From Amoebophrya sp. A120 (taxonomy: Eukaryota > Protista > Dinoflagellata): DNA of 64,000 bases. Of the stretch, positions 22,436 through 59,300 are shown piece by piece; position 1 is the stretch's first letter; every line of letters begins with the position of its first letter. The stretch covers positions 12,073,832 to 12,137,831 of the forward strand of contig CAJINV010000001.1 of assembly GCA_905178155.1 (NCBI GenBank), in the 5' to 3' direction. The translations under genes and the position numbers were made by a program. Under the pieces are notes generated by a model. It worked only from the letters and a program-made list of their open reading frames with translations, searched no databases and had not been told where the DNA came from.

Positions 22436-25400
22436 ATGAGTAGGGCACAGAACAACACTCTTTCCGGGCCGTGTTCCAGCCGACGGCTGGCCGCGCACAC
22501 TTGTTGTCCAGTACAACAACTGTGGCCATTTTTACTACTTGTCTTCCTCGTCTTCGCACCAATGCCAACAGTCGCGCAGCAAGCTCTGACCATCGAGGAG
22601 GTGTCCTCCCGATCGCCGTACGTCAACGCTTTTCCCGTCCACTTGCGGTTGACGTGGCAAACCAACATTCCGACCACCAGTTTGGACGTGAAGTGCTGCG
22701 TGACTGCTGTGAAGGGCACCATGGACAGCTCGCGGACCGAGCTGTACCTGGACCTGCGCACCGCCAACAACGGCGTGTCCTTTGACGCCGGGCAAGCGAA
22801 CTGGCACTTTCTGCCCCGGATCCCCTACTACCTGAGCGACAACACCACCCAGGCCACCGCGTTCCAACACTGTGGGTTGCTGGACCCGAGCATCGAGCTG
22901 TACTTCGACAGCGACAACATCCGGCAACTGCGGAATCCCGAGATCTCGGTGTACCAGTTCACGATCCCCGGGTCGCTGATTACGGCGAACAACCCGACCC
23001 TGGTCTTCGACTTGCGGAACGCGGCGAACCCGCTGGAGGCAAACGCAGACACGGCCGAATTCGCCTCCATCACCGTGTCGCACTCCAATCTGCGCTCCGC
23101 GAGCGGGCGGCGGCAGAACGTGTACCACTGGGCTTCGATGGAGGTGCTGAAGTTTCAGGTGCAGCCGAACTTCTACGCGCAAACTTCCGCCACGTTGGAG
23201 CTCACCTTTCGGTTGCGGGGGTTGAAACAAAGGAAAAGACTGCCGGGCAACAGCTGGATCTCCCTGAACGCGCCGATCGGCTGGAGGTTTTCCCTGCAGT
23301 CGCAGATCGTGGTGTACCAGCCGGACCTCACGAGCGACAGTTTTCCAGTTTTGTTCACCGACTGCGGGAGGATCGGAAATGTGTGCACGGGCGGGTACCT
23401 GGGCGCGCAGTTGTCGGCGACGTACGAGTACAACAACCGCGATTGGGAGTCGCAATTGCGGAGCCTCGTGTTTCCGAACTCTCCGCACGTCGACGCGGCG
23501 ACGTATTTCGACTACAGTCAGAACACCAGCCAGGTGTACGTCCTTGGTCAGGCGGCCGGGAACGAGGTGGTTACGTACGTGAATACGACCTCCTGGGACA
23601 GCTTGCCTATCAAATGTAAAAATGTCTGGGTCTGGAAAATTGCGAGATTTGTCATGCAGATTTTCCATGACCCATGAGGTCTGGAATGCGGGGCCTAGCA
23701 TGACAGAGTCTGTGAGGTCTCTGCCATGCCTATCCCGCATGAGAAACTACCTCCCAACTTGGTCGAAAGTGGACAGCTTTTGGCACTCATGCAACACAGA
23801 TTTTGACTTTTGCACTATTTGGATTTAGCATGACTTTTCCAGACCCAGACATTTTTGCATTTGATATTGCCCATGGCGGACCCAACCGCATGGTCGGCGG
23901 TGCCGGCGCAGGCCCGGTACAAGCGGGCGGTGATTCAGGATGTGAACACGGGGGATTTGCAGTTCTCGGTGGACGACACGGTGCTGCTGCGCGTCAGGGT
24001 GACGAACGTGGAATCTCCCGGGAACAAGGCAAGCAACGCTGCGGACGAGTTGGCGATGAACACGTGGACCTTTCACTACGGGTTGATCCAGTCCACCGCA
24101 CTGGACAAGAGACTGGCCACGGTCACGGTACGGGCGCGCGACGTGATGCTGGAGGCGATGGAGGTGAGTGTGAAGGTGAAAGGCTTTCAGTCGTCCGCAA
24201 CGACGCCCGATGCCTTCACCATCTCCTCGGCCCCCTATGCCTCACTGGTGCAGCTGGTTTTCACCGTGTCAAAAGCAATCGCAACGAGCAGCAGAAAGAA
24301 CTACTTCTATCTGTGGACGCCAGCGGTTTCTGAGCAAGGAAACACGTGGAAATTTTCCAGCAGCAATTGCAAGGGCGATCTCGGGGTACTGAACTGCTAC
24401 AATCTGGATTTTGCCTCGGCGGGAACGAATTCGTTGGTCCATTCGCTGGCGACGAGCTACTTCACGGTCTTTGGCGAAACAGTTTTAGATACGACGTCTG
24501 GAGGAAGTGCGTTGCAGTTTTCTATGTTCGCGACAAGCCCGAAACCTGGGTACAGTTCAAATGCGAATTGGCGGCTCTCTTTGTCCGAGGATGGGACGAC
24601 TTTCGCGAAAATTTTGAATCACGCCAACGGGGTTTCGCACGCGAGTCTGACGCTCGTCGAGCTCCAGGATTTCAACGCGGTCAATTTGAATTTCATCTCG
24701 ATGCACACCAGTGCCGTCACCCCGCCCCCACTGTCGTTCGCGCCGAAGTTTAGCGTGTCCGCGATCCCGGCCATTCTCACCACCAGCACCATTGTCGAGT
24801 TCCAGTTCCAGCTGCGCAAGTTGGACTTGGCCAGAACGAGTGCGCGGGCGACGTCAGTAGAAGCCACCATGACGGGATTGCGGCTCACGGGCCCGTGTGA
24901 AATCAAATCCTACAAAAATGGATTCAACTTAGCCAAGGTGGAAACCGGAATCGCCGATTCCGGGCACACGCTTTTTATTCCAATGGCGCACGTAAAATTG
25001 AGCAGCAACAACGATGCTAGGATTATGGTAGAAGTTGAGGTGTGCGCCAGTGCTTTGGCGCCAGCGAATGCAGTGTCTCTTGGGCAACCGGATTTTGGAG
25101 CAGCAGTGGGAACTGGAAACGCGTTTTTGTACACAAACGCGGAGGTGGCGGGGAAGTGGAATCTAGAAGTGATCGGAACGGGCAACGCGGTCCTGGATCT
25201 CGCGACGGTCGCACATTTTTCCGTTGCGACGCACGCCTGGGACCAGCGGTCCTCTTTTTCGGCCATTTCGGAGAACAGGGTAGTCTTCCAAATCTACCTA
25301 CCCGCCACGACGTCGCTAGACCCACTCACGTTCACGATCCGCGTCAACGGCTTGACCCTCTCTGCCTGCACCCTGGACCGGGTCCCCGGATCCGTGTCCG

Positions 25401-28400
25401 AGTTCCCGACGAATACGGCATCAGTGGAAACTTTACTCTGTGCGGAATCGTCTTCCGGTTACTACTTTCAGCTGTCCCAGATTCCGGTGACGAGGAGCAT
25501 GTTGACGTTTCAAGTGCGAGCGACGTTTCCGACCCCGGACGGTAGCAGTGTGGAGATCTGGGAAAGCGTTTCCCGCCCAAATACGACCGTGACGACCACG
25601 CTGAGACAGCACGCACCCTTGAGGATAAATTCCGGCCCGAGCAGCAGCAGACGCTTCAGCCAATGCGGTTCGCAAGTATCGCTCTCGAGCTCCGTCGTGG
25701 ATCCCGTAGGAAATGTGGTTGTGGTTCAGCAAACTGCCGCAGCTCCTACATCTTCTAGTTCCAACACGTCGAGCAGCGCCTCGGCAAGTCTTGTCGCGAG
25801 CACAACAACAGTAGCGCCGATAACGAACACCGTGGCGGGCACCATCAGCGAGAAAGACCTACTCACCACCAGCCCCTCGATTTACCCCGCGCAACACGCG
25901 TTGGGGCAGTACTTCAACCAGCTGCACAGCGGCAACAGTCGGGTGCGGATAAAAACCATTCCGTCGCTGGGAAACGCATACGTCTTGCAGGACGACCAGA
26001 CGCAGGAATTTCTCATGTGGTCCCCCCTCGAACCGACAGACAACGTCTGGCTACGGGGCGGCTACAGGTTGGCAACGGTGTCCGCGAGTTGCAACGGGCT
26101 CGCCGCGGAGAGTTCCGCTCTATACGGGGACGTGGACAAGGACGCGGCGGACCAGGCCGACGAGCTGTGGCAGACGATGATTTTGATCGTGATTCTCGCC
26201 CTCGGCTTGCTGTTCGGATTTGCGCTTCTGTACAATCTCGCCTTCCACCGTGAGGACTGCTTCTCGCGGTTGCGCTTAATCCTGGTGCTGCGCTACAATT
26301 GGAGCGGCAATCTGATGAGCAAAAACTACTACGATTACTACGGCGAGGAGGTCGGAGACGACGTCGCCCTGACCTATCCGAGCTACTGGAGCATCGCGGA
26401 CGAACGGAAGCTCGCCAAGGTGCAGCAAAAGAGCAACAGCGCGTTTCGCGCACTGGCCAACGGGCCGGCGAACGAGAAGCCGGCCAAGTCGAAATCCAGC
26501 CAAGATTGGCCCTCGAAGGACGACTACTACATCCCCGCTTTGCCCCCCGGGGTCGATGTCTACGATCTCATGGACCAAGACAAACAAAATTCCCCCGGGA
26601 GAAACAATGGATCCCTACCAACCAATATCGCTAGCAATTACGCCGCGAGCAAAGAACGCAACCGCAGTGGAAGCACAGTTGGGGAACAACATCAAAGGAA
26701 GAACAGCCTGCTCAGCCTCGAGGGAATTCCGCCAGACTTGAACAACAATGGGACGGACCCCTCGCCCTTACCGAGTCCGTCCGTCGGCAGTGACCACTAC
26801 CACAGCAAATTGAACTGGGCGCCGAAGCGCACCATGTCAACACAGCAGCGCTCGAACACCGGAGACAAGTTGGAGCAGCCGCCGAAGAGGCAGAGTTCGA
26901 CTGGGTCTCCATTGAAGCAAGCGCCGAGTTGCAAATTTCACATCTGCGACCAGTCGGTGGTGGAGGGGGTACAGCGCATGTTGGACGAAACGTGGAAATC
27001 AACCGCAACGAGGGACCGAAGACGGCTCGCCGCGCGGATTGGGGGCAGCGCGCGGGTCCCAACGCGGTTGGAGGTGGGCTACGTGGCGCGCGTGGAAAAC
27101 ACCGCCCTCTGGCGGCAGTACGCGGGCTTGCGTTCCTCGATGCTGCAGCTCAGCCGCGGGGTGGACCTGAAAATCCCCGCCCACAAGCCCATACCCCTGT
27201 CGACCAAGACCTGGGAGGCTGCGGGCTTGCCGCAACCGGAGCTGTTCACGCCCCTGAACGAGTTTTTGTTCTTTCACGGGACCTCCCCCTCCGCCGCGGA
27301 CAGCATCGCGAACGAGGGCTTCAAGCTTTCGCTCGCCGGAAAGCACGGGGGGTCGATGTACGGTGCGGGCATCTACGCGTCGGAGTCCTGCACTAAGGCG
27401 GATGAGTACTCGCACGACGAGTGGCTGGAGGACGACCGGTACTGCGCGATGCTGGTCCTCCGCGCCGTCGCGGCCCGCGTGTACTACACGGCGGACCCGC
27501 ACCCGGACTCCAAACACATCGAGTCTCTGTGCAAGTTCAACCGGTTTGACTCGGTTTTGGGGGATCGCGAGAAAGCCCGGGACACCTTCAAGGAGTGGAT
27601 TTTTTTCAAGCCGGAACAGGTGTACACCGAATACATCATTCGCTACAAGCGCAGGTACGACGTCCGACCGCCGAGTTACGGAGCGAAACTTTTGCACAAC
27701 GTCAGCTACCGGGCGTTGATGCCGGCCGGTCTCGGGGGCAGCTTCTCCGGCTTGAACGCGTCCAAGTACCACAAGCAGATATGGGCCGAGCACTTGGCTG
27801 CGGAGGAAGATTTGAAGATGAAAAAGAAGAAAGACACGACGAAAATTACGGTGGACGTCGAAGACGCCAAGGGCAAGTACACAGCGGACAAGAAGAACAA
27901 AAAGGCCGATGTGGTGAAGCGCGCGAGCAGTGTGGGCGGCGTGTTGGACGAGGAAACAACCGCACGCGATCGCGAGGATAGGAGTGGTGCCAAGCGGTCC
28001 TCTTTCCTGAACCGTCCTCCCGGGGAAAGAGACAATGGCAGCAGCAGTAGCAAGGACAAAAACCCCACCCCCAGCACGACGTCGACGGACGGTGGCACAG
28101 CGGCAGAGCAGCCAGGGGGGGTGAGCAAGGCCAAATCGATCTCGGAGCAAGTCAGGGAGAGAGAATTGCTGCAGCAGAAAGAAAAGGAAAAACAAGAAAA
28201 CAGGGACCGCAAAGGCAAAATCGCGACGGATAGCAGCTCAGCAGCTGCGGCGATAACCGCAAAATTGGGCGGAAATAATGGGGCAGACGACGATAAAAGA
28301 AGGGAAAAAGCTGCGAAAGAAAACAAGAGAGACAGCAAAACGTCCCGGCAGAAAAACAGCCTCACGGTCGAAAACGTCAAGCGGCAGAGCGTGAACCTGC

Positions 28401-28702
28401 TCCGGGTGGAGACGGACACGCCGGATACCAACAGCAACCGCTCTTCGGTACCCTCAAGCATCCTCGAAGGGACGCACGTGGCTACGACCCGGGTTCCAGT
28501 GCCCTCACCGAAACACGAGAAAAACTCGCGACTGCAGACCGAGTTCGCCTCGAGCTCCTCCGCTTCCGACACCGAGCACACGACCAAAGTGAAATCTCCC
28601 CAGCGGGAACGAAAAGCGAGACTTCAAGACATGTCGAGCGGGTCCGATCTAGAGGCAACGCGGAAAACGCCGTCGAGCTACAGGGCAGGGCGGACGAAAT
28701 GA
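22436..28702 (+). CDS. Single-pass membrane protein with large N-terminal region and C-terminal PARP-family ADP-ribosyltransferase domain
   Basis: ORFs 22436 and 23855 join after removal of insert 23608-23871 (WDSLP-MADPT). Signal-like LWPFLLLVFLVFAP; TM MILIVILALGLLFGFALLY (~26177-26233); PARP motifs FHGT (27272-27283), MYGAGIYASE..KADEYS, FDSV, FKEW and QVYTEYII. Confidence 0.85.
23608..23866. mobile_element. Family-A introner (259 bp), TSD TTGCC, internally inverted relative to other A copies
   Basis: Family-A TIRs; TTGCC at 23603-23607 and 23867-23871; internal atgcctatcccgcatgagaaa is the reverse complement of the ttgtcatgcggaataggcat seen in other copies. Confidence 0.95.
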
Positions 28703-29494: not shown

Positions 29495-32400
29495 ATGGCA
29501 CCCTGGCAGGGGGGTTCTTCGTTCGAGGGTCCGGCGGCGGAGGACGAGGATGTCAGCCTCGGTTTTGATAACCCCGCCGCGGAGCCCATAATCAGCCAGA
29601 AGGAGAGAACGTCGACGGACAGCAACTTTATTGAGGAGGACGACGTGTCCATTCTCAACTCAGAGGCCGCCATTGTGGATTTGGAGGGCCAAGATTTGAT
29701 TTTTTCCTTCCTCGAAGTCACGTATGGTTTCATCCTCCGCCCTTGCGCCGTTGCGTCCGAACATGTGTTTTCTCAGAAAGCGCGGCGGAACTACAACCAG
29801 CTGCTGGTGTACATGAGCAAGGCCTTCGGCCACAACGTCCCGGCGGAATTCCAAGAATGCGTAGACACCGAGACGATGAACGTGCAAAGGAAACTTCGGA
29901 ATCAAAGCATGTACTACAATTAGATACTTCAGATTTGCGCCGCTCACCTTCTTGTTGGCTGGACAGTTACTTTTTCAATCGTTCTGAATCTGATCCTAGA
30001 CAGAGTTCGTAGTTTTTCAGTACAGCATGACCACGGAAAATCAGTAACACATCAATCAAAAATCTATGCTAAAACAAAAACAGGCTCTACGTGCCCCGGC
30101 TTCTTCCGAACGCGGTGATCTGTGACGCCAAGCCGCAGTTCAGCTCCGAACAGCTCCACGACGAGGTTCTCCCTCTAACCGTGTATTCCACGAACTACAC
30201 CGGTGAGATCAACAGCAAGCCCTTGTTGAAGAAGCGAAAATGCTGCACCGTCGGGATGTCGCACATATTGGACTACGTCCAGGTGTTGTCTTTCGCGTGG
30301 TGGCGACAGCGCAACCCGTTCGGGAAAATGCTGTTCGGCTTGGTCTCCGCGTTGCTCTTTTCCGGCCTACTCTACGGCTTCATCGTCCAGTTTCGCGACT
30401 GGAAGTGGCCCGACTATGGGCAGGTGCACTTCTTCGTGTTCTGGTACACGATCTTTCTCGGCCTCTGCACCTTACACTTCGGCGTCTTCAACCTGCAGTT
30501 TTCCAAGGACCGCTCGCTGTTCATCAACCAGCTGCTGTATCTGTACTCGCAGCAGTGGGAACACTTTCTGCACGACCGGGTGTTGGAGAAAAAGAAGCAA
30601 GAAGAGGAGCGGAAGCAGAGGCAGCAGCGACTTGCGCGGGCTTTACCAAACTCCCCGAATGATGGAGGTGCGGATAGTAAAATGAACTCCAGCACGCAAT
30701 CGCCGTTCTCGACCGGTGTGGACAGCCACAGCACCACGACCGGGTCTGCTGGTGTCCGCGAACCGCTGCAGTCCGCGTTTCAGCGTAGCTACGAGTCGCC
30801 GGAAACTTCTCCGGGCATGACCACGCGACTGCTCGCGGCCACGGGGAGCTACGGCACGACTGGAACAACCGAAGAGGAGCTTGCGAACCCCGCTTTGCCG
30901 GTAAACACAGCAACAAGTGCATCAATACCTGGTGCGAACAGCACTTCTGTGACCACTACTGCGCAAACTATGTTCGGACAGCAATTATCGAGCGCTGACG
31001 TCACAAAGGAGCTCGAGAGACCCTCTTCCTTTAACTTCTCGCTCACCCCCCGCGCATTCAACCGCGCCACCGCGAACAACCAGAAAGCGCAGCTGAGAGC
31101 AGCCGGGTCGCCCGCACCGGCGGAGAAGCTGTACGGCACCTACCGCGGGCCGTTTCTGACCACAGTCGGTTCACTGCCATCGGACGAGCAAAACTGGTTC
31201 CAGGATCATTTGTACACATCCCCAGAAATCCAGCGCCAAAATTGGGACTTCGTCCAAACCCTCCGTCGGTCCAGCGGCTGTTGGGCCGTGTTGATTGGGT
31301 ACAGCTTTCTGATCTTCGTCACCATGTGCAGCATCAGCCTGGCGCACTGGTCCAACCCGGGCGTGCTCCCCATCGGGGCGCCGAGCGCGAGGAATATGTT
31401 CGGCCTATCGGAGTTACAACCCGCAAAGGACGTCGCAGCCGCCGCTGCGAGTTCTACAGACCCGCTCACCGCGACCACCACGGCCGCGCCCGAGCTGCAG
31501 AACATCTGGAACGTGGACCCGGAGCGCGACGGGTTCGACCCGAACAAGTCCGAGGGGGTCACGGACAAGGAACGCGAGGCGCAGGCGAAATTCGAGGAGA
31601 ACGTGAAGAAACACATCCAGGGTGCCGCGCCGGGCGAGGGATTGCGGTGGTGCCGGGAGACCATGCAGTACCTGCCGGACAACGCACACTACTGTAGCTA
31701 CGACAAGTTCGTCGTGCTCGGGAGAGACCACCACTGCCCGTGGGTGGGAAATTGCGTCGGGTTCGGAAACTACAAGTTCTTCATTTTGTTCCTCTTCTGG
31801 TACTGGATCATGGCCGTCGTCGGGTTTTTCATCAACATAAGAGGTATCACAGGCTTTTTGCTTTGCAATGCTTTTATTTCGCTCTCTTTCCATTCACTCC
31901 TGGTGGTCCAAGCAAAAAGAAAAACGTGTATTGATGTCGCGATTTGGATCTCTCCTCTCGTGTTTCTAGTTATGCCAACCGCCCCTGTCTACTCTAGGTC
32001 TAGCCTCTAACTATCTAAAGAGTGTGCGTGTCTTCGTGTTACTACAAACGCACTTCCAGATGTTGTAGCGTCGATAAAAACGAATACGGAAAACAAAAAC
32101 TACAGCCATCGCGTTCTATCTTTTGTCCGACGTGTGTGGTGACACGATTTTCCGCCAGCGCGGCCCTGCGTTAACCAACTTCGTTGCGGAGCAGTTTCCG
32201 CAAGGGCATTCGGAGTGGGAGTACGTCCGTGTCCTGCTGTTTTTTGTCGTGAAGCGCAATCGCTACACCGACGAACTCGACTGGTCCGACGAGTCTTGGG
32301 GAACAAATTCTTCGCGCAGCGAGTGCAAGGCCGTAACGTCCGAATCCGAAGAGGATATGAGAAACGCCAACTCAAGTGGAGCAGGTAAAAAAATTAGCAA

Positions 32401-34169: not shown

Positions 34170-37100
34170 ATGTACGTAGTAAAACGGGACGGAACGCGCG
34201 AAAAGGTCGCGTTCGACAAAATCACGCAACGGCTACACAAGCTTTGCTTTGGTTTGAACAAGGAGTACCTCGTCCCGGAAAAAATCGCGCAAAAAGTGGT
34301 CGAAGGCGTTTACGATGGCGTCCACACGTGCGACTTGGACAACCTGGCCGCGGAAACCTGTGCGTACATGTCCCAGATGCACCCGGATTTCAGCCTACTG
34401 GCCGCCAGGATAGCGATCAGCAACCTCCAAAAAATGACAAGTCCATCGTAAAAACTACTTTTAAATGTTTTTTGTCCTTTACGTTTTTTTCGTATTTGAT
34501 ATGCTTGACTGATTTTCATCTCCTGATGACGTTGAGGTTTCGACATTGAAAAAACAATAGATCGCGCTGCTCTATTGCTTGGCTCAATCAACAAACCCAC
34601 AGGTTCGAAACCACCTGCAAGACGCTATTTTTCTACACGGACGAAGGGGGCCGGGATTGCGCACTGCTTTCGAAGGAGTACTTTGATTTCTGCAGTCAGC
34701 ACTGGGACCAAATCCAAGGCGCATTGAAATACGAGCGGGATTTCACCTACGACTACTTTGGTTTCAAGACTCTGGAGCGGAGCTACTTGTTGAGGGTGGA
34801 CGGCAAGATCGTCGAGAGACCACAGCATTTGATTATGCGCTGCGCGCTGGGGATTCACATGGGCGACATCGAGTCTGCATTGGAGACTTACGACTGGATG
34901 AGTCAGAAGTTCTTCACGCACGCCACTCCAACGCTTTTTAACGCAGGTATGAGCGTATAGGTCTACCATCTAAGTTTTTCACTAAAGAACAATGGAAGGA
35001 AGGAAAAAAATAGAAAGTCGCCCACGGAAAGTCAAGGAACAATTAAACTGTGCCCAAGTGCCTTCTAGACCTGCTTGCTGCGAATTTATGTCACCAGGTA
35101 CACCGAAGAACCAGATGTCTTCCTGTTTCCTTCTTTCCATGTATCCACAGTAAATTTCCCGTACACGTACAACTGCGGCCTCTGCATGACAAAACTTGGC
35201 ATCGATCCTAGTTTAGCATGACAAGTCTTCAGCTCCAAATTGGTAGAATTTGTGATGCATCTTGTACATGTACGGGAAATTTGTATTGCATACCATGGTC
35301 TCCGACAGTATAGATGGGATCTACGATACCCTGAAACGGTGCGCGAAAATATCAAAGTCTGCCGGCGGCATCGGCGTAGCGATTTCGAATGTGCGAGCAA
35401 GCGGAAGCTACATCCGGGGAACCAACGGTTACAGCAATGGATTAGTCCCGATGCTCCGAGTTTTCAACGACACGGCCCGATACGTCGACCAGGGCGGGGG
35501 CAGGAGAAAAGGCGCGTTTGCGGTACTACTATGCATACTCTAGATGAAGTTTTGACAAAACTACGAAAAGTTTGTAGGTCGAATTGTTTATGCTGGATCG
35601 ACAATTTTTTTCGGAGTGAAATTCCCAAGACTGTTTTCCACGAACAGATGTACCTCGAGCCGTGGCACGCCGATGTGTTTGACTTCCTGGAATTGAAGAA
35701 GAACCACGGGAAGGAGGAAAACCGAGCGCGAGACTTGTTCTACGCACTCTGGATTCCCGATTTGTTCATGAAGCGCGTCATGGATGCCGGGGACTGGACG
35801 CTTTTTTGCCCCGATGAGACCAGACACCCGGAGACGAAGAAAACTCTGCAAGACTTGTGGGGCCCGGAGTTCGAGGAAAGATACGTGGAACTGGAGAAAG
35901 CAGGTACTTACAAAAGTAGCTACATGCGACGTGCAACCTGCTGCACAATCTTTGCCCTTGCCTGGACCTGGTGCTTGGGCCCTCTTCTGTCTTCACTATC
36001 AGTCGTGACTGTGCACGACGACTAGTAGTACAACAAGTAGGAAAAAAAAGCATCAGCATAATTTCCTCAACTCGACCAGGTAAGGGCCGCAAGACCATCC
36101 CCGCGCAGTCACTTTGGAACAAGATCCTGGAATCTCAAATGGAGACCGGTGTTCCATACATGTGCTACAAGGACCTATGCATTGCAAAAGTAACGTACTA
36201 GCATAAATTGCATTACAAATTTTCTCAAGAAGAAAAGTGGAATTTGTAATGCTGTTTTACCTTTTGAGGAAGATTTGTCATGCATATTTGCAATTAGTAC
36301 AAGTACGATACGTTTGCACAGCATAGGACCACGCTAACAGCAAGTCCAACCAGCAAAACCTGGGGACGATCCGTATGGCGTTCTCAAACGTTACATTCTC
36401 AACTGTTACATGGTTTGTCATGCGAAATTGCCTTCAGAAGCGACACCATCAAGCTGCTTCGCATGACAAATTCTCAGAGGGCCAAATAGGGTGATAATCG
36501 GCGCCAAGTCTGTCATGCAAGACGCGCAAGATCTCCCCTATTACTTTTGCCATTCTTGCATTACAAATTTCATGTAACAGTTGAGAGTGTAACGTTTGAG
36601 AACGCCATAATCCGCTGTTCCAATCTGTGCACGGAAATCTTCGAGTACACCAGTCCCGACGAGGTGGCCGTGTGCAACCTAGCCAGTATTGCGCTGAACA
36701 TGTTTACCAAGGAAGAGGCCGTCGCTGCCGCGCAGGAGGGCGGGTCCAGTTCGAGCTCGAAGGTGCCGATACAGGAGAAGTACGACTTCGAAAAACTGAA
36801 GCTTATTTCCAAAATGGTCACGAAAAACCTGAACAAGGTGATTGACGTTAATTACTACCCCGTGGAGGCCGCGGAGAAGTCGAACAGGAGGCACCGGCCA
36901 ATTGGTATCGGCGTTCAGGGATTGGCGGACGCTTTCATGAAGCTCAAGTACCTATCTATCTTCGATCGAGTTGTTTTCGTCTTTCTGACTCTACGGTTCG
37001 TGTTTGTTAAAACGCGAGCGCGGCACGATTTTTTTCGGGTTGGTTTTGATTGTTGTGGACAGAACAATACAGCAGGCCGGCTTTTTAGCTCGTGGTCACT

Positions 37101-38368
37101 GGTAGTGGTGAGCGAGCCAAGGTAATTGCTCCCGCTCTGCGAAAAAAAATCAGGATACCATTCGAGAGCGAGGAAGCGCGGGAGCTAAACAAATTGATTT
37201 TCGAGACAATATACTTCGGCGCGTGCGAGGCATCAATGGAGCTGGCAGCAAAGAACGGCCCGTATGAAACATGGAAGGGTTGCCCGGCTGACAAAGGTAA
37301 TATGCAAGCTTAAGAATTTTGCTTGAGAAAGAAAATCATAATTTGCTCACCTCGTCCGCAGGGAAATCTTAGTGCTGCTTTTATTGAAGTACTACAAACT
37401 AACGATGATCTTTCTGTCACGCACCCATATCCAACCTGACAATCGAATCGCGACACAGGTAAACTTCAATACGACCTGTGGGGCGTGACACCAACGCCAT
37501 TGCACGACTGGGCGGCTCTAAAGGAAAAAATTGCGCAGCACGGCATGCGCAATAGTTTACTGCTTGCCCCGATGCCAACCGCCTCCACGGCACAGATTTT
37601 GGGAAACAACGAATCTTTTGAGCCATACACGCAGAACATCTACGTATTGAAGACGTTTTCCTATAATTTTTTGACATTGATGACGCCGTGCACGTGCTGC
37701 ATTTGATGGAAAACATTCAAAAGTGACTATCGTCTGCTGGATTTCTCACCTCGCGATAATTTTATCAGGTCCGTCGTGTGCTATCCGGTGAATTCGTGCA
37801 AGTGAATCGGCATCTTTTGAAGGACTTGATTGACAGGGGGCTCTGGAACCAGGACATGAAAACAAAGCTCATCGCGAACAACGGGTCGGTGCAAACGATT
37901 GCAGAAATCCCATCCGACATGAAGGAAATGTACGTGAAAAGATGTTGTTGAAGATGAAGTCAAAGTTTTTAACAGCGTGGATGCCTTTTGGGTTTTGTGA
38001 AGCCGTTCTGATTTCCTACTAATTATTGTAATTGCGAAATAAACAAAAACCACCGCAGATACAAAACGGTCTGGGAGATCAAGCAGAAGCGCATTCTCGA
38101 ATTAGCAGCCGACCGCGGTGCGTTCATTGACCAGTCGCAGAGTCTCAACGTGCACATGACCGGTTGCACGACCCAGAAGCTTTCCTCGATGCACTTCTAC
38201 GGCTGGAAGCTCGGTCTCAAGACTGGGCAGTACTACCTGCGAACGAAGGCGGCTGTGGAGGCGATCAAATTTACGGTCGATGTTACCGACACGAAGAAAG
38301 CCCAGGCAAAGCTGAAGGCGGAGCAGGATGAGAAGAGCAAATACGAGTGCGTGGGGTGCGGCAGCTGA
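34170..38368 (+). CDS. RRM1: Ribonucleoside-diphosphate reductase large subunit (class Ia)
   Basis: ATP cone [49 protein letters not shown] and C-terminal ECVGCGS. GT-AG introns 34448-34602, 34947-35097, 35523-35647, 35904-36079, 36948-37153, 37297-37458, 37644-37768 and 37930-38058, plus three non-canonical inserts. Confidence 0.97.
35142..35292. mobile_element. Family-D introner (151 bp), TSD CCATG, in RNR
   Basis: TAT...ATA; IR aaatttcccgtacacgtacaa / ttgtacatgtacgggaaattt; removal restores [20 protein letters not shown]. Confidence 0.93.
36176..36325. mobile_element. Family-B introner (150 bp), TSD GGACC, inverted orientation, in RNR
   Basis: tatgcattgcaaaagtaacgtact...agtacgatacgtttgcacagcata; GGACC on both sides; removal restores [17 protein letters not shown]. 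Confidence 0.95.
36374..36609. mobile_element. Family-C introner (236 bp), TSD ATCCG, in RNR
   Basis: 39-bp TIR with 1 mismatch (tatggcgttctcaaacgttaca...); ATCCG at 36369-36373 and 36610-36614; removal restores [12 protein letters not shown]. Confidence 0.96.
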
Positions 38369-39672: not shown

Positions 39673-42600
39673 ATGCCGTCAGCCCGTCCGAGCGAGGTAG
39701 CTGCTGGCGGCAGCAGACCGCCTACCCGCGAGAAAATCGATCAACTCAAGGGCGACGCGAAGGCGATCACTAAATTGCTCAAGGACAGCAAATATCAAAT
39801 GTAAAGATGTCTGGGTCTGGAAGAATCCGAACTTGTGATGCTGCATTTGGATTCTAAAAAAATCTGTATTGCATGACCAGCAAAGGGAATGCAATTTTGG
39901 CTACGCGGCGAGGGCATTTGTCATGCGGAATAGGTATCCCGAAGCCCTCAAAAAGTCTGTGATGCTAGGGCATGCATCACAGACATCGTGGCCCCTGCAA
40001 AACGTGCATGACAAGTTTCAGAATCTTCAGACCCAGACATTTTTACATTTGAAAGCAAAAAGTGGACCGAGTTGACGCAGAGCGTTTTTTCTATCCTGTG
40101 CAAAAGTATCGCACTCGTACTAATCGCATTCATGCAATACAAATTTCTTTCTAAAGTTAAATCCGCATTACAAATTTTCTTTCTCATGCTGACGAAAGTT
40201 GTCATGCGATTTATACTAGTACGATGCTTTTGCATTTCATATTTTCGGAGCTGCAGCAGAAAGACCAGCTCGAGAAGAAATTCAACACCGTTGTCAAGCG
40301 GGCCGACGAGAATGAAACGAAGGTACTATTAGAGGAACTAAATTCACACACTTTCATTTGATTCGTGAATTGTGTTTGGGATGATTGTGATTGCTTCAGA
40401 CTCCCGACTACTTAATTTGAAGCCGAATTGGAATTCGCACTCGAGGCGAGTGTGATAATTGCGAACAGGAATGGGTTACACATTGTCTCTCTCTTCACTC
40501 GCACAGCTCGCGAAGCTGCAACGGGGCCTCGAGGAGGAAAAGCAGGCCCTTTGGGCGGAGGCTAGAAAAGAAAAATCGGACGCAGTGGAGCAGCTGGCAA
40601 CGGTGGAGGAACACTTGTCTGAAGCCAAGGAGCAAGTCGAATACCTCACCAAGGCGCTCGCGAAACATGAACACTCGTATACTATGCTACAGCTGCCGCC
40701 GTGCTTTGTTTGGTCATACGTTATCTTTGCTCTCTGCGAAGAACAGACCCTCACCTGCGTCAAAGATGGACTTTGCCATATGTTTTCTGGCGAACTTCTT
40801 GCGTTCTTCCAATTTATCTTGTTTGTATCGGGAATGAATCTTTACTAAGGTCCGAAGAAGCCGGGAAGACTACGGCCGGGCTTGAAGCAGAGGCGGAGTC
40901 CTTGCGCCGGCGGAACAGTGAGCTGGTTACACGCTGCAGTGAGTTGGAAGGCCGCTGCAAGGAATTAGAGACGGCAAACTTCGATTTGCTGAAACACAGC
41001 GAAAAGCAACAGAAAGAGTAAGTAGTTAAGTACTTATCTAAATGTCGACTTAAGTAAGTATTTCTTCGTCGTTGTGCACGAGGATGAAGTGATTGAAGAT
41101 AATGACCTTGCAACTGCGCAGCTGGCCGTTTGCGCTCGCGCTTCCCATGTAGATGGAATTGAAAATTCTCAGACTCTCTTCCCTAATGGAGGCCAATCAC
41201 CAAGCCAAGGAGTCCGCGATGCAGTACAAAACCGAAAGCGTCCGGATCGGCAATGCGTTGAAGGACGCCACGCAGAAGATCGCCGAGATGGCGAACTTTG
41301 GAAAGAAATTTCTCGAGCCAACCCCGCCCACTCCCGCGGTAGACGTGCGTCCCGGAAGCCGCGGGCGCGTGAGTTTCAACAGTACAACCGGGAGTGGTGG
41401 GAAGAACAGGGTGGTATTGGATCCGCTACCACTGTCGGTCACGGGCACACAGGAACCCATAGTAAGTCCAGTGAGCGGGTTTCAAAAGTGGGCAAACTTC
41501 TACGGTCTGCCAGAAAACGGAAAGCCGGAAGCGGCTGGTACAATGTTGAGACAGATATTTTCACAATCACAATTAGGATCTACTACTTCCTTGACCGTCA
41601 GCTAGGTTGTACTACCTGGCACTAAATCAATGGCAAAAGCGCGATATTGATACGTCGCTACAGGTGCGTCGCTGGCTAAGACCCTGAAGCAGTCGTTCGT
41701 GGAATCCGTAAAGAAAAAGTACGGCAACTTGATCCGCGGTTGGCGGGTACTGGCCGCCTATGCCTCGCAGGGAGACTCTTTGACTCTTGCGGAGTTTTCC
41801 AACGCGTATAAACAAATTGCTCCTTTACCTTGTTCATTTCATTGAAGAACGTTGATGAGTCTCAATGACAATGTAGTTCTGGGTCTCGGTATCTTGGATG
41901 AAACGAAAAGGAAAAGAACATACCCACAGCATGTCTATAAGTCATGCAACACCTGAATCATCATCGAAAGTCTTGAAACACCTCCGCTGCAGGTGCCACG
42001 AGCTTCACCTGATCTCCGAGAAGAACATGAAAATGACCTTCCACGACTTTGTCGGGAATTTCCACGGGAAGCTGACCCTACCCGACCTCGATTCCGAATC
42101 TTACCGCGCCTGGAGCAACCTACGGCTGAAACTGCAAGACCTGTTTGGTTCGACCGTGCACGGGATACGCGAGATGTTTGGCCCGAAAGCCAGCCTCTCC
42201 GCGGAGGACTTTCTGCACTGCGTCGAGCACATCAAGGTGCAGAAGGGAAAACTGCTGGTCACGTATCTGCAAGTCGAGAACCGCGTTTACTCCGACTCGC
42301 TTGTCCTGAACGAATCCGAAGTGCCGGCACTGAAGGTTGACAGTCAAACCTTGCTCGAGATGCAGAAGAGCGGCAGCACCCTGTCTCCCGACGCAAAAAA
42401 ATTCCTCCAGCGCGAGCAGGCGCAGGAAAAGCGCGCGAGCCGGGCGAGCGCCCCATCTGCTGCGATGAGGCGCGGCTCCCCGGACTTGTACACATCAAAT
42501 CAGCCGACGGACTCTCCGGAACTCGGTGGGACCACGCTCGAGCCGCCAATGAGTGCGAGTTACTACGCGACGAGTAGCCCGATGCTAGAGCAGTCTTTGA

Positions 42601-45328
42601 AGAAGGAGAAGCTCACCGGGGCACAGTTGTTTGAAAATTTGAAGAGGCTGCTCATCAAGAAGTATCGGTCCCTGTCCCTCGCGTGGAAAACTGCCTTCGA
42701 CGTGCAGGGCCGAGGCCACTGCGGGTCGCAGCACTTTGCTGCGGTGTGCCGCGGGTTGGGCTTCGAGGGGGCGAATAGCGTATGGCGGGAGGTGGTGCAG
42801 TGGCGCTCAAAGAGCGGTTTGTTGACCTACGCGGATCTCGACCCCGAGGGTGCGCAACTGATCTACGAGTTAAAAGCCAGGATGGTTGACAAGTAAGTAC
42901 ATGCTTGCAATAGACGAAAATTGTAAAGTTATGCGTGAGACTGCTCCTTCGTTCTAGAAGTATCGTGGAAGATGTTTATGTTGATCAACATGATTTTTGA
43001 TCAACATGATTTTTGATCAACACGCTCGTGCACCCCAATAAACAAGGTATCGCGACTTCGTCACTGCCTGGGTCGTCGGTATCGATATGGATGGCAGCAA
43101 CCGCGTTTCTGAGGCCGACTTTGTGAATACGGTATCTAGTGGCAAATTTGGTGACTTTTCGGAAGTGGAATCGCGGCAGCTGTTCCGTTTACTGCGCTCT
43201 GCGGACAAGAAGTTCCTGCAGCTCCACGATATCGACGTCAAAGCGGGTCAACAGCTGATGGACGGCAATCTGCCTCCCTATGTGGACCAAATGAAGGCGG
43301 AAGCGAGGAAGCAGCTCAGTCGCGGCATGAGCCGGGAAAGGAGAACCGAGTTTTTGGTCAGGCAGAATTCGCACGAGGTATCTTGTTATCATTCACCTGA
43401 TCGTGTCATGAGCCCATAAGCGCGAGTACCTTCTTCTTCTGTGTCTCTCTGCCTTTTGTTTTCGCTGTGTTGATGAAGTATCTATTGAATGTTGTCGCTG
43501 GATTCCATTCTATTTGCACTAGATCCACGCCTTCCGGACGGAGTTTGCGCAGCACAAGCGGCAGCAGCTGAACGCTAAGGATGAACGGCGGCAGAGCCGG
43601 GACATGGGGGCGAGTTCCAAGGAGGAGTTCCTGAGCTTTCTGAAGCGCAAGTACGGAAACCTGCCCCGCGCCTGGCGCACGGCCTTCGACACGGACGGCA
43701 ACGGGAAAGTTTCGCAGCAGGAGTTCTTCAGTGTCTGTCGACACCTGAACGCCTTTATCGGCGACGTGAGCAAGTTGTTTTCCGAGTTCGACGTGGACCA
43801 GAGCGGCATTTTGTCCCTCGCGGAGGTCGACCCGGCGGCGTGGCGGATTTTGTCCAATTTTGAGGACAAGTGTCTCGAGGCGGTGGCTGCTTCCTCCTCG
43901 CGGGGGGCGGTAGTGGTCCAGCCCCCCTCTGCGTCCACGACGATTGGCGGTGCGCAATCCGGGTCCGACGCGTCGGAGCCAAGCGGTGCAGCTGTTCCCC
44001 GTGGGCGCACGGGAGCGTTGGCGAAGTGGTGGAGCGTGTTCTTCGCCGATCAGGATTTTGCGGAGCACGACCTCCTGCGCCGTATGCAGGACAACAGCGC
44101 GGTGACGGCGACAATTCTGAAGATCGATTTCACCAGGTTCCAGGCCATCTGTGCGAAGGATTTGAATTTGCACAACGAAGTGACGGTCAGGAAGCTGTTT
44201 TCCTACTTTGCAAAGGAGGAGGGATCCACGTTTCTGACCGAAACGGATTTTAAGGCGATGGACATCCCGAAAATGCGGGACATGCGCGAGCGCAAGCGTC
44301 GTAGCAGCAACGCATTTGGGGGCGGCGCGCGATCTCGGAGCACGTCGCTCCAAAGCTCAAAGCAGGCGAGCGCCAGTCCATCCGAGAACGAGGGAGCCAG
44401 CAACGTCGTGAGTCCTGCGGTCCCGGAGGAGGGGATTGTCGGTAGTACAGCCGGGGCCGCGGCCACCGAAGTGTTGAAGGCCGCAAAGCCGGAAGAAGCG
44501 AGCAAGTCGGAGGAAGAAACAGATGCATATCACAAGAAAAAAGTGTTACAGTTACACATTTGTTGGAGTTTCTGCATCACAAATTTTCTCTGTGTGGCAG
44601 GGAAAACTTGTAATGCGAAGATCATTAGGGAAAACAGGAAGGAAACGAGGCTCCCAAGCATTTCCTGCATGAGAAAGGTTATCTGTGTTGCTGGTCTTGC
44701 AACACAATGTGTAACTGTAACACTTTTTTCTTGCGATACTGCAGATGCCGACCACAGCAGCAGCACAAGCGCCGAGGCAAGTGGAGGTTCCAGCACGGAG
44801 CCGGAACCTGCAGCGGATCAGGTCGGTCTTGCAAAAAAGAATGACGCCGATGTTCTTGGAGCGAGTGCCAGTGAGGAAGAAGATCCTATCTTGGGAGCCT
44901 CACAGGAAACCGCAGAAGAGGAGGAAGTAACGAAACCAGCAGGAGAACAGGATCCAAGTGCTGCTACAATAGACAAGGCTGAAGAATCTTCTGCTCCGGA
45001 GGGCGGACAGGAAATTATCATTCCTACTCGATCTGCAGCGAAAGATGACGAAGAGCCGCCAGCAGCAGTAGAGGCTGCGACCACCACGACAACGTCCGAC
45101 ATTGACGAGTTTTGCGTGACCTTCGTCGAGGCGAATGAGGGTGACTGCAGCCGCGCGTGGGGCAACCTCTTCGGCACCGACGAGGATGTCGAGGAAGCCA
45201 AGTTTGTCGACTTTTGCAAGGCCGTGCGGGCGAAGGGGTTCCAGGGCAACTTGAAGCTTCTGTGGACCAAGTTCGGTGGGACGGATACACTCTGCCCCGG
45301 TGACATGGAAGAAAAGCTGTTCTTCTGA
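39673..45328 (+). CDS. Coiled-coil plus multiple EF-hand-like repeat protein; multi-exon
   Basis: Repeated units KKYRSLSLAWKTAFDVQGRG, DMDGSNRVSEADF, KRKYGNLPRAWRTAFDTDGNGKVSQQEF and FDVDQSGILSLAE; N-terminal heptad-rich exons; three introners and several GT-AG introns. Not every internal junction was verified. Confidence 0.7.
39793..40054. mobile_element. Family-A introner (262 bp), TSD GCAAA
   Basis: Family-A TIRs with the right end mutated to AAA; GCAAA on both sides; removal gives KDSK-KWTEL. Confidence 0.92.
40092..40241. mobile_element. Family-B introner (150 bp), TSD TTTTC
   Basis: tatcctgtgcaaaagtatcgcact...agtacgatgcttttgcatttcata; removal gives SVFS-ELQQKDQLE. Confidence 0.92.
42981..43022. 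repeat. 16-bp tandem repeat (about 2.6 copies) in an intron
   Basis: ttgatcaacatgattt repeated at 42981, 42997 and 43013. Confidence 0.8.
44528..44738. mobile_element. Family-E introner (211 bp), TSD ATGCA/CTGCA, stop-free in frame
   Basis: 33-bp TIR tatcacaagaaaaaagtgttacagttacacatt with 1 mismatch; AT-rich island inside ORF 43604; element plus TSD is 216 nt. Confidence 0.9.
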
Positions 45329-48878: not shown

Positions 48879-51800
48879 ATGCAGTCGGCGCAGCGATCCA
48901 GGCGCGCTCATCTTGCGGGATTGTTGTTTCTTCTTGTGACGGACGCAACGGTTGCCAATGGCGCAGCCAACACGCCAGCGCCACGGTACCCTCAAAGCTT
49001 CAATCTGCCACCGGTCAACAACCTCGGCAATGTGCTTGGGCGCAACTACAATTATCCAAATAATGGGCTCGGTAGTTTGACTTCTTTGAACAACCAAGCT
49101 TCGCTCGGTCCAGGAACAATCACCGCGACCTCCGTCACCGCTTCCCAATTGCGGGATCGGATACACGTGCCGAGTGCACGCGTCGTGGAGATACGTAATT
49201 TCCACTCGGGCTTTGACGTCCCAGACATACCGGCATCCGACCACAGGGAAATTCTGCTTGTCTCGACTTACGTATAGTTTTTGACTTTTCAAAACTTCAT
49301 CTTCATGTACTTTTGTTATTTCGACCTTCAGGTCCAGATGGGGTCCTTGAATCGCGTCCTTGCGTAAAAGCGGTTTAAATCTCTAAGCCTAAACACTATG
49401 AATGTTGTGTACGGTACGTGAACACACGCCAGTTGATTCGTCGCGAGCAGCAGTTGTTCAGAACCGTGGACAGGACGGAGCTGCCCGCGAGCGCCAATCT
49501 AGAGTATCAGCGCATGCTGGCCCGAGTGCGGAACCGGCGATCTTCGGACGCCGCCCTGCAATCTCGGAGTTGCGTCCTCTGGATGGGCGCGGACGAGCAA
49601 GATGAATTCTACTTGTACGGCAAGGCGCTTGGAGTCGAAGGTGCAGCCGCCCACCGCTTGACCATTCGCGAAATCAAGATCGGGAGAAGTAGTTTCACTG
49701 CAGCCTCTCGGTACTATATAAAAAACGCTTTGTCGACGATGAAAGATATTCGACGGCCGCAGGTGCTTGCTGCACACACTGCCGTAGCCATTTTCACTAC
49801 TCGAAGGAGACCCTCCATATGCTATATCCTATCCATACAAAAATATTTTCTGAGTCGTTTCCTTCGTACAGAAACCTTTTCCTGCTTTTAACGCTCTTTG
49901 TGGTCCTCACTGGTTCTTGTGCCTGGTGCATGATCCATCTTGGCTCAAACACTCACCTTTTTTGTACTTCAGCGTCGACGAGACCGCACTGCAGTCCGCC
50001 ATCAACGAGTGCGAGGTGCTGAACCTCGGTGGTGGCAAGCCGGCGCGATTTGCGCGCAACCTGCAGCATTTGCAGACCACCCACAGACCACTCTGGGATC
50101 GCATGATGACGCTTATCCGCGAGGGCAAACTGATGGTATTCGCCTACAGTGCGGGGGCCGTGGTAATTGGCAAGACTGCGGAACACTGGCTGGACGACAT
50201 GGACGAGCCCGTGCCTTCGGAGATGACTACCGACCAGGCACGCCACTTCCTCAAGGAAGGGGCATTGAAACTCCTGGGACCATATCAGGTTCCTGGTTTC
50301 TGATTCTCGATTCTCAAACTCATTATCGTTCTTCTATCCACACAGTATTCCCTTTACTTATTCCTATGGACGAAACTCCTTAAGAACTCCCCTTAAGACT
50401 TCCCCTTAAGAAACTCCTTAAAAAAGGGGGGGGCGCGGAATCGATGACACCATGGGGGTTCATTTTTGCGCCGATGGTATGCTGCGTTTTTCTGTGTGCG
50501 TTGGCGCAAGGTTTTGGCACCCAGAAAATCGGGCCCATAGCATGGGGATTCGGGCCGAAAGGCTTTAAGGCGATTTCTTTAAGGGGAAATCTTTAGGGGG
50601 CATCTTTAAGGGCATTCTTAAGGGAATCTGTAAGGGGGCCTTTAAGGGGATGCTTAAGGGGGCCCGTAGAGCGGCCCGCGCGATTTCGTCAGGAGACAGG
50701 GCGCAAAAAGCTAACTATTGCAGTGCCCTGCGTGCCGTGAGCAGAGCGGCAGCCACGGACCGCAACAAGAGAGCCACCATGCGCAAGGCAGCCGGCAGGC
50801 TAGCGGCGGCCGGTAGGCCTGGAACAGCCGGCAGGCTAGCAGTGGCCGGCTGGCAACCAAGCGGCAGCCGGAAGGCTAGCCGCGGTTGGCAGGCCAGCGG
50901 CAGCCGGCCGGCTGACAGCGGCCGGGGGCTATCTAACTAGCGGCGGCCGGGCCGGCCAATGGGCTAGCGCGCGGCCGGCCGAGAGGCTAACGGCAACCAA
51001 CCCGATGCACGCGGTGCGGCCCGCCGACAGGCAGAGGCAGCTAGCGGCACTCGGCCCGCCGGCAGGACAGAGGCCAGCGGCAGCCGGCCCGCCGGCAGGT
51101 AGGACAGAGGCCAGCGGCAGCCGGCCCGCCGGCAGGTAGGACAGAGAGAGGCCAGCGCCAGGGCAGCCGGCCCGCCGGCAGGTAGGACAGGGGCCAGCGG
51201 CAGCCGGCCCGCCGGCAGGCAGGACAGAGAGAGGCCAGCGGCAGCCGGCCCGCCGGCAGGTAGGACAGAGGCCAGCGGCAGCCGGCCCGCCGGCAGGTAG
51301 GACAGAGGCCAGCGGCAGCCGGCCCGCCCGGGCAGGTAGGACAGAGGCCAGCGGCAGCCGGCCCGCCGGCAGGACAGAGGCCCGCCACCCAGCGGCAGCC
51401 GGCACGCGGGCAGAGGCAGGCCAGCGGCAGCCGGCGCGGGCGCTCGCAGGTCAGGCAGCCGGTCCGAGGCAATTGCCGCCGGTGAATTTTTTTTAAATTT
51501 CCATTAATTCTGGGAATCGCGGGTCGTTTGGCCTGGTGTGCAACCAATTTGGTGGGCGCCCCCGCCGGGGTTGGTGGCGCGGCGTGGTGTGGCGTCTCCG
51601 TTTCCAGTTTTCCTTGGCGCCGTACGCTCTCGGGCCTCTCCCCCTTGCTGTGTGTTCTCCCCCATCCTCCCGGAAATGGGGGCCGCTTTTTGGAAACCCT
51701 TTTCGCGCGTGAGGCGCCGCGGCTTTTGGTGGTGGCCTGCCCTTTGGTGGTCTTTTCCCTTTCCCCAGGGAAAGTCTCGGGTCGGGCCCTTGCCCGGGCC

Positions 51801-57779: not shown

Positions 57780-59300
<1,521 letters not shown>

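What the first reader, a model, noticed from the sequence alone, without database searches (positions are those of the whole stretch)
35137..36640. Three different inserts interrupt catalytic motifs of ribonucleotide reductase
Seen: inserts split [17 protein letters not shown] and [12 protein letters not shown]. Known: in class Ia RNR the SSCF cysteine and the NLCTE Asn/Cys/Glu are active-site residues and the enzyme is essential. The surrounding exons show no stops or frameshifts. This is the best internal evidence that removal is nucleotide-precise and leaves exactly one TSD copy.
Basis: partly seen in the sequence, partly recalled or inferred. Interest (0 to 1): 0.78.

Follow-up and report, generated by a model that had tools for sequence, protein, structure and literature searches.

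The report
Transposon-born introns in ribonucleotide reductase
Three small hairpin-shaped pieces of jumping DNA sit inside the ribonucleotide reductase gene of a marine parasite and are missing to the base from assembled, likely RNA-derived contigs although they lack normal splice signals; they belong to an already described class whose removal enzyme is still unknown.

Summary
The inserts are real. The gene is RNR1 (34170-38368, +); its spliced frame equals an annotated 805-aa Amoebophrya sp. A120 protein. It holds 8 GT-AG introns and three unrelated MITE-like elements (151, 150, 236 nt; TAT...ATA inverted ends; 5-nt target duplications). Contigs of three RNA-like runs skip exactly element plus one duplication (156, 155, 241 nt); no cut register gives GT-AG. 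These are the introner elements described in this organism in 2021: already known.

No insert splits a catalytic codon, YKDHAN is not catalytic, intact exons are expected after any insertion, and a second full-length A120 RNR large subunit exists. Closeness to active-site codons is nominally unusual (P 0.001-0.016, post hoc).

Added here, from a second assembly with the same families: the duplication is uniformly 5 nt and of free sequence; both orientations occur; mutations between duplication copies are mostly synonymous (16 of 25, 7.6 expected), support for removal in the cell that needs no cDNA; families share an internal motif; elements cluster 40-80 nt apart. Removal is likely hairpin-guided. 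The scan noted similar introns in other genomes.

The parts
34170..38368 (+). RNR1 (class Ia ribonucleotide reductase large subunit) gene, 12 coding exons: 34170-34447, 34603-34946, 35098-35141, 35298-35522, 35648-35903, 36080-36175, 36331-36373, 36615-36947, 37154-37296, 37459-37643, 37769-37929, 38059-38368; 805 aa
   Evidence: spliced frame identical to P0002; Pfam ATP-cone, Ribonuc_red_lgN, lgC; full-length match to solved R1 chains
35142..35292 (.). E1: 151-nt MITE-like introner, TAT...ATA, 32-nt inverted arms 81% complementary
   Evidence: skipped with one TSD (156 nt) in X1, X3, X4; 91% full-length relative at another site with another 5-nt TSD
35137..35141 (+). E1 left TSD copy (CCATG)
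35293..35297 (+). E1 right TSD copy (CCATG)
36176..36325 (.). E2: 150-nt MITE-like introner, member of a family with three more copies in the window (13313, 40092 in the opposite orientation; 63773 in the same)
   Evidence: skipped with one TSD (155 nt)
36171..36175 (+). E2 left TSD copy (GGACC)
36326..36330 (+). E2 right TSD copy (GGACC)
36374..36609 (.). E3: 236-nt MITE-like introner, 39-nt arms 97% complementary
   Evidence: skipped with one TSD (241 nt); relatives at 79-84% elsewhere
36369..36373 (+). E3 left TSD copy (ATCCG)
36610..36614 (+). E3 right TSD copy (ATCCG)
35098..35141 (+). 44-nt exon between GT-AG intron 2 and E1; encodes C217
36331..36373 (+). 43-nt exon between E2 and E3
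34947..35097 (+). ordinary GT-AG intron (one of eight: 34448-34602, 34947-35097, 35523-35647, 35904-36079, 36948-37153, 37297-37458, 37644-37768, 37930-38058)
   Evidence: all eight start GTA and end CAG; three seen as joints
35184..36565 (.). nine copies of the shared internal motif GCAT[GT]ACA, on both strands, all inside E1 (2), E2 (3) and E3 (4)

Best explanation
The three inserts are non-coding, MITE-like elements with TAT...ATA inverted ends and 5-base target duplications that sit in the RNR1 coding sequence and are absent, together with exactly one duplication copy, from spliced contigs; they are likely cut out of the pre-mRNA by a hairpin-guided route that does not read GU/AG signals. 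Shown: anatomy, repeated families, junctions. Inferred step 1: a DDE-type transposase acting in trans inserted them with a 5-base stagger, binding the ends and the shared internal motif, and favouring sites 40-80 bases from an earlier element. Inferred step 2: in the transcript the inverted ends fold into a long stem that brings the two duplication copies together in either orientation. Inferred step 3: a nuclease-and-ligase activity measures from the UAU/AUA stem base, cuts at equivalent positions in the two copies and joins the exons, so the old frame is restored whatever the target sequence. I put about 0.9 on precise removal from RNA in the cell and about 0.5 on the whole chain with a non-spliceosomal (or separate) machine. 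The position near active-site codons is taken as chance.
For: Joints skip 156, 155 and 241 nt = element + 5 in contigs of X1, X3, X4, with no added letters; ordinary-intron bins have depth 0, the E1 interior bin 0, 1.0, 0 against 35-156 in exons. No register gives GT-AG; 0 of 45 in a second assembly, 9 of 45 with neither GT nor AG, TSD bases near background. The spliceosome-like register (N|UAU donor plus UA-N| acceptor) would remove element + 2 and add one codon; it is not what the contigs show, although E1 and E3 offer a GUAU donor and E2 a UAG acceptor. Both orientations occur in coding sequence (21:15 in the largest family, 6:3 in the E2 family). Fold z-scores -5.5, -7.3, -13.9 for E1-E3 against -0.8 to +1.5 for the 8 ordinary introns (mononucleotide shuffles). 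No sense-strand excess of branch-like or motif sequence near the 3' end in 79 elements. Single TSD mismatches are synonymous in 16 of 25 confident coding cases against 7.6 expected (P 0.0004; 58 tested), so host genes stay under protein-level selection after insertion. P0002 is 88% identical to the A25 orthologue where orthologues average about 50%, with a short end branch (0.07). Retention would stop translation at aa 226, 423 or 469.
Against: No enzyme is identified; step 3 rests on absence of spliceosomal signals and on analogy. The published view is an adapted spliceosome lacking U1, and nearly all spliceosomal proteins are present. The junction evidence is cDNA contigs from 2 samples of 1 study, guessed to be RNA and probably the data behind the annotation; contigs drop minor forms, so precision per molecule is not measured. 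Hairpin plus direct repeats is also the signature of reverse-transcriptase slippage. Only 2-3 of 8 ordinary introns show a CTRAY branch motif, so that test has little power. The nearness to active-site codons stays nominally unlikely under three nulls (P 0.001-0.016). No autonomous element or transposase was found.
Confidence: 0.5

Rival explanations
1. Same origin and same precise removal from RNA, but carried out by the U2/U5/U6 spliceosome, adapted (U1 apparently lost) to take the hairpin base as its landmark and to accept free dinucleotides.
For: Proposed by Farhat et al.; 83 of 89 spliceosomal proteins detected there; precedent in Fritillaria as reviewed. The element start gives N-U-A at one register, like the GUA of all 8 ordinary donors here.
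Against: At any precise register at least one cut lies in free TSD sequence; ordinary introns of the same gene keep GTA...CAG in 8 of 8; the in-frame element + 2 register that mimics both signals is not used; a 30-50 bp stem would hide the branch region; no strand bias.
Confidence: 0.38
2. The skipped junctions are reverse-transcriptase template-switch artefacts; this RNR1 copy is dead or poorly spliced and the paralogue P0127 supplies the enzyme.
For: Hairpin flanked by short direct repeats is the described substrate; such products reached up to 70% of cDNA reads in human data. A second intact R1 protein exists. 'Template switch', 'reverse transcri' and 'RT-PCR' have 0 hits in the main text of the A120 paper.
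Against: All three elements are skipped in one dominant contig per run with near-zero interior depth; synonymous bias of post-insertion TSD mutations; no stop or frameshift in 2418 nt and a short branch although nearest sampled relatives of E1-E3 are 84-91% identical (a small sample, so age is an upper bound).
Confidence: 0.06
3. The elements target, or are kept preferentially at, active-site codons, like inteins and homing introns in ribonucleotide reductases.
For: 2 of 3 sites within 6 codons of the five active-site residues (P 0.008 uniform; 0.002-0.016 with spacing-aware nulls), 3 of 3 within 20 codons (P 0.001-0.010); 0 of 8 ordinary introns within 6 codons.
Against: Thresholds chosen after seeing the data, in a gene picked for this pattern from a genome with about 30,000 repeated introns; conservation percentiles equal those of ordinary introns; TSDs show no sequence preference; 11 other elements in the window show no such link; no ORF, no Rfam intron match; E2 and E3 are not multiples of three.
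Confidence: 0.05
4. The elements are excised from DNA (ciliate IES-like) before transcription.
For: Precise loss with one repeat copy left resembles IES excision (recalled).
Against: In the intron-containing run X5, single contigs at flat depth 42-43 run unbroken across the left and right borders of E1, the left of E2 and the right of E3, and no listed joint skips an element (15 of 44 joints shown). X5 may be the source of the window. No germ-line/soma split is known in this lineage (recalled), so excision would be inherited.
Confidence: 0.02

Closest known systems
Introner elements (IEs) among the non-canonical introns of Amoebophrya sp. A120 (Farhat et al. 2021, PMC7789003; 58 A120 families in Gozashti et al. 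2025, PMC12130899 Dataset file 8)
   Same: Same organism and annotated gene; IR starting TAT, then about 7 variable bases and AAA; short direct repeats over the borders; hairpin; repeated families; about 150-300 nt; non-canonical borders.
   Different: Nothing in kind. Refinements: the repeat is a uniform 5-nt TSD abutting the TAT (paper: 3-5 nt, variable; Fig. S19 legend shows 5 bp; the 2025 automated calls range 2-5 in the 21 of 58 rows seen); shared internal motif, free orientation and 40-80 nt spacing were not found in the text I read.
MITE-type introners of Micromonas pusilla and Aureococcus anophagefferens (as reviewed in PMC11282704 and PMC9860276)
   Same: Short TIR + TSD elements that become introns; biased insertion sites.
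   Different: Those carry one canonical splice site and co-opt the other from the TSD; here neither is present and the TSD sequence is free.
Euglenid nonconventional introns (PMC11282704 section 6; PMC12501133 abstract)
   Same: Ends paired into a stem, TSD-like repeats, no GT-AG, coexisting with ordinary spliceosomal introns, unknown machinery.
   Different: Different end code (CAG/CTG set in from the borders, purine at the exon start); unrelated lineage; circles without lariats are reported there and untested here.
Falsitrons (reverse-transcription artefacts; PMC8240250)
   Same: Hairpin between short direct repeats, seen as a skip in cDNA.
   Different: Here the skip is needed for the frame, is dominant, and host genes show purifying selection after insertion.

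Membership tests
Amoebophrya A120 introner elements | Non-canonical splice borders (not GT-AG) | tested here: met
   no GT-AG in any of 6, 7 and 6 registers
Amoebophrya A120 introner elements | Terminal inverted repeat starting TAT, with an A run near position 11-13 | tested here: met
   all six ends start TAT; A run present in E1 and E2, shifted in E3; profile
Amoebophrya A120 introner elements | Direct repeat of 3-5 nt over the exon/intron borders | tested here: met
   CCATG, GGACC, ATCCG
Amoebophrya A120 introner elements | Repeated elsewhere at unrelated sites | tested here: met
   E2: three more copies in the window; E1, E2, E3 in families of 3, 37 and 9 in the pooled set, with different TSDs
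Amoebophrya A120 introner elements | Removal supported by RNA-seq | tested here: met
   joints in contigs of X1, X3, X4; runs guessed to be RNA, ordinary introns also absent
MITE (non-autonomous TIR DNA transposon) | Short, non-coding, TIR plus fixed-length TSD, many copies | tested here: met
   282 of 538 TAT..ATA pairings have an exact 5-nt flank repeat; other lengths 45 (2 nt), 7, 2, 1, 1, 2
MITE (non-autonomous TIR DNA transposon) | Cognate autonomous element or transposase, superfamily assignment | tested here: inconclusive
   no Pfam transposase in 4 ORFs of the longest candidates or 20 window ORFs; genome not available
Canonical-site introners (Micromonas/Aureococcus type) | One canonical site carried, the other co-opted from the TSD | tested here: not met
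   0 of 3 here and 0 of 45 GT-AG in the second assembly; TSD composition near background
Spliceosomal intron | Excision through a lariat, U2/U6 dependent | not testable with these tools
   no raw reads on the gene; branch-motif scan weak
Intein or group I/II intron of ribonucleotide reductase | In-frame protein insert, or ribozyme core | tested here: not met
   retention gives early stops; no intron family in Rfam at E 0.1, one chance hairpin match
Class Ia RNR large subunit | ATP cone, barrel, SSCF Cys, NLCTE, second redox Cys, YY, C-terminal CxxC | tested here: met
   the roles of the residues are recalled

The most novel reading that the evidence does not exclude
Amoebophrya A120 has a second, spliceosome-independent mRNA splicing system that cuts any UAU...AUA hairpin out with exactly one 5-nt duplication, in either orientation and at any target sequence, making every insertion of one transposase system (5-nt TSD, shared GCATNACAA array at 31-32 nt spacing, insertion 40-80 nt from earlier elements) a scar-free intron; both duplication copies may contribute to the mRNA through a variable cut register.
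Probability: 0.35. Interest if true: 0.8.

Novelty: already known. Interest (0 to 1): 0.32.

Why it matters
The class and this gene model are already public, so the finding as written adds little. It touches an open question: how tens of thousands of GU/AG-less hairpin introns are removed in Amoebophrya. Three things here help: an argument for removal in the cell that does not depend on reverse transcription (synonymous bias of TSD mismatches), a geometric test that separates spliceosome-like from other removal (element + 2 against element + 5), and a cross-family motif and spacing rule that point to one transposase system. If a separate splicing machine exists it would be a new RNA-processing pathway that lets transposons colonise coding sequence without cost.

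Tried and rejected
No whole genome held, so a second-copy search at DNA level and dN/dS could not be done; no orthologous DNA was fetched. A 22-nt end pattern hit two viral contigs (L001, L002): a chance match inside a phage helicase gene, no second arm, no motif. Long candidates L054 (4208 nt) and L074 (2459 nt) look like two separate elements around host exons; no transposase domain. An integrase-family search on five loci was not possible, records not held. An apparent bias for C/G at the last TSD base in the window's copies vanished in the larger set. The internal motif as branch point: no sense-strand excess near the 3' end, absent there in E2; overall strand counts 101 forward, 135 reverse (P 0.03, opposite to the idea). 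TSD-mismatch cases did not fix the cut register; 60-65% synonymous is above the roughly 46% expected if one copy were free, a weak hint only. '45 of 45 in frame' was not counted as evidence of splicing because any insertion gives it. Spacing-aware nulls did not remove the nominal nearness to active-site codons. Later intron borders were mis-set and corrected; conservation figures are. Motif not found in print: search 'GCATGACA'+'transposon' (83 papers, 15 listed, none on this organism), 0 hits in 12 of 14 supplements of PMC12130899, 'subterminal' 0 in PMC7789003; figures and logos could not be seen and may show it.

Full report
What is there. The region is a eukaryotic RNR1 gene on the + strand, 34170-38368. 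Twelve exons give an open 805-aa frame identical to database protein P0002, which its sources label Amoebophrya sp. A120. It has the three Pfam domains of a class Ia large subunit, aligns over its length to solved R1 chains and keeps C217, N432, C434, E436, C449, Y761, Y762, C800 and C803 (roles recalled). Eight introns are ordinary, all GTA...CAG. Three are not: E1 35142-35292, E2 36176-36325 and E3 36374-36609. Each starts TAT, ends ATA, has inverted arms of 32-42 nt and lies between two copies of a 5-nt sequence. None of the possible cut registers gives GT-AG; E2 allows GA-AG. They fold far better than shuffles (z -5.5, -7.3, -13.9), the ordinary introns do not. Retention would stop translation at aa 226, 423 or 469.

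Removal. Contigs of runs X1, X3 and X4 (2 samples, 1 study; kind guessed as RNA) each contain one record that skips 156, 155 and 241 nt, that is element plus one repeat copy, with no added letters, and also skips the three GT-AG introns in the stretch. Run X5 holds the introns and runs unbroken at depth 42-43 across four of the six element borders; it may be the source of the window. Three raw-read runs did not cover the gene. Contigs hide minor forms, and these are probably the data behind the annotation, so this confirms the major product, not per-molecule precision.

The junctions have no indel against 202 of 202 relatives. But no insert splits a catalytic codon: E1 is 5-6 codons after C217, E3 3 codons before N432, E2 17 codons away. 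Conservation around the three sites (percentiles 49, 59, 84) matches that around ordinary introns (P 0.50). Against my reading, closeness to the five active-site residues is nominally unusual: P 0.008 for two of three within 6 codons, 0.001-0.016 across nulls and thresholds. These thresholds are post hoc and the gene was picked from a genome with about 30,000 repeated introns, so I take it as chance. Intact exons prove little, since any insertion leaves them. Its introns and expression are unknown. P0002 still looks selected: 88% identical to the A25 orthologue against about 50% on average, end branch 0.07.

The family. The window holds 14 such elements (11 from the scan, 3 more from BLAST), and for most a long + strand frame continues across the site. 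There, 282 of 538 TAT..ATA pairings under 700 nt have an exact 5-nt flank repeat, other lengths being at chance level. Of 281 elements, 151 had testable flanks and 45 were confidently coding: removed lengths fall evenly modulo three (15, 12, 18), TSD bases follow background, 0 of 45 allow GT-AG and 9 allow neither GT nor AG. Elements lie in both orientations relative to the gene (21:15 and 6:3 in the two largest families; 79 strand calls). E1, E2 and E3 have full-length relatives at other sites with other TSDs.

Evidence that needs no cDNA. Hairpins between short repeats are the known substrate of reverse-transcriptase slippage, a concern not raised in the main text of the A120 paper. Differences between the two TSD copies must post-date insertion. 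Among 58 single-mismatch cases, 25 had a confident frame called from the flanks alone; 16 were synonymous against 7.6 expected (P 0.0004; 16 of 27, 15 of 23 and 20 of 33 at other thresholds). Host genes therefore stay under protein-level selection after insertion, which requires in-frame removal in the cell. The codon model was trained on this window and includes two window elements.

Two further regularities. The motif GCAT[GT]ACA, first seen in E1-E3, falls in elements in 34 of 40 window hits on 4.7% of the DNA (25 of 31 without E1-E3). In the second assembly 269 of 281 elements carry it, including 13 of 14 singletons, at 8.8 per kb against 0.22 outside, often 31-32 nt apart. It shows no sense-strand preference near the 3' end, which fits a transposase binding site better than a branch point (inference). 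Neighbouring elements are 40-80 nt apart in 88 of 294 gaps against a null mean of 18 and maximum of 32 in 2000 draws, and close neighbours are not more often of one family (9 of 125 against 12 of 120). The 43-nt exon between E2 and E3 fits this; E1 is 44 nt from an ordinary intron. Biased insertion into nucleosome linkers is reported for other introners; whether it explains this spacing is untested.

Mechanism. Shown: anatomy, families, junctions. Inferred: insertion by a transposase in trans with a 5-base stagger; folding of the transcript so that both TSD copies meet at the stem base; cutting at equivalent positions and joining. One geometric point favours a signal-blind route: the element ends mimic a donor (N-U-A-U) and an acceptor (U-A-N) at a register that would remove element + 2 and add one codon in frame, yet all three junctions remove element + 5, although E1 and E3 offer GUAU and E2 offers UAG. 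I give about 0.5 to a nuclease-ligase or separate machine and about 0.38 to the adapted U1-less spliceosome proposed in print.

What is known. Farhat et al. 2021 (PMC7789003; abstract, sections 7, 10, 11, 12, 16, 32, passages, supplement passages and part 3 of 5) describe these introner elements in A120: TAT-starting inverted repeats, 3-5 nt direct repeats, hairpins, RNA-seq support. Gozashti et al. 2025 (PMC12130899; passages, supplement search, 21 of 58 A120 rows) list them mostly as TIR DNA elements of unknown superfamily and describe one family with an integrase-like ORF. Also seen: PMC11282704 (passages, section 6), PMC11453091 (passages), PMC9860276 (passages), PMC8240250 (abstract, passages), PMC12501133 (abstract). 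Figures were not visible and may show the motif or repeat lengths. Earlier scan notes report similar element-plus-one-TSD introns in other genomes, none on this genome or sequence; I did not test them.

Verdict. Real, correctly predicted in its junctions, overstated in its title, and a member of a published class in the published genome. Interest 0.32, carried by the open splicing question and by the tests proposed.

Noticed in passing
P0127 (not in the window; source scaffold of the same length as that of P0002): Second A120 RNR large subunit, 792 aa, 68% identical, long branch (0.58), sister to the clade of P0002, P0004, P0007 and P0005; all catalytic residues kept.
   Followed up: partly
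window 13313-13462, 19492-19749, 19800-20107, 23608-23866, 39793-40054, 40092-40241, 44528-44738, 53431-53646, 60566-60833, 62581-62845, 63773-63922: Eleven more TAT...ATA elements; 39793 and 63773 have a damaged terminal triplet but perfect TSDs inside open frames, 44528 and 60566 have one TSD mismatch, 53431 has no matching TSD. Good test cases for the removal rule.
   Followed up: partly
window about 1390-1697: Worn element related to the 19492/23608 family, with one internal motif copy.
   Followed up: no
all elements; L003-L138: Shared internal motif GCAT[GTC]ACA[AG][AG]T on both strands, often 31-32 nt apart and about 40 nt from an end.
   Followed up: partly
window 19749-19800, 36325-36374, 40054-40092; L003-L138: Neighbouring elements cluster 40-80 nt apart and avoid under 30 nt.
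   Followed up: partly
L044:5001-6031 and L048:5001-5972: Elements of about 1 kb with the common ends and perfect TSDs; no Pfam hit in the one ORF tested; possible deletion derivatives of an autonomous element.
   Followed up: partly
window 2046-2112: Short hairpin with arms perfect over at least 20 nt, not of the TAT...ATA type.
   Followed up: no
window about 50380-52850: GC-rich array of short imperfect repeats, up to 70% GC.
   Followed up: no
window 3782-4432, 23834-28702, 30073-32010, 43523-45328, 57780-58655: Co-oriented neighbours with Pfam hits: metallophosphoesterase, PARP catalytic domain, DHHC palmitoyltransferase, EF-hand, zinc dehydrogenase.
   Followed up: no
L001:3001-3022, L002:176-197: Chance 22-nt match to an element end inside a phage helicase gene.
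   Followed up: yes
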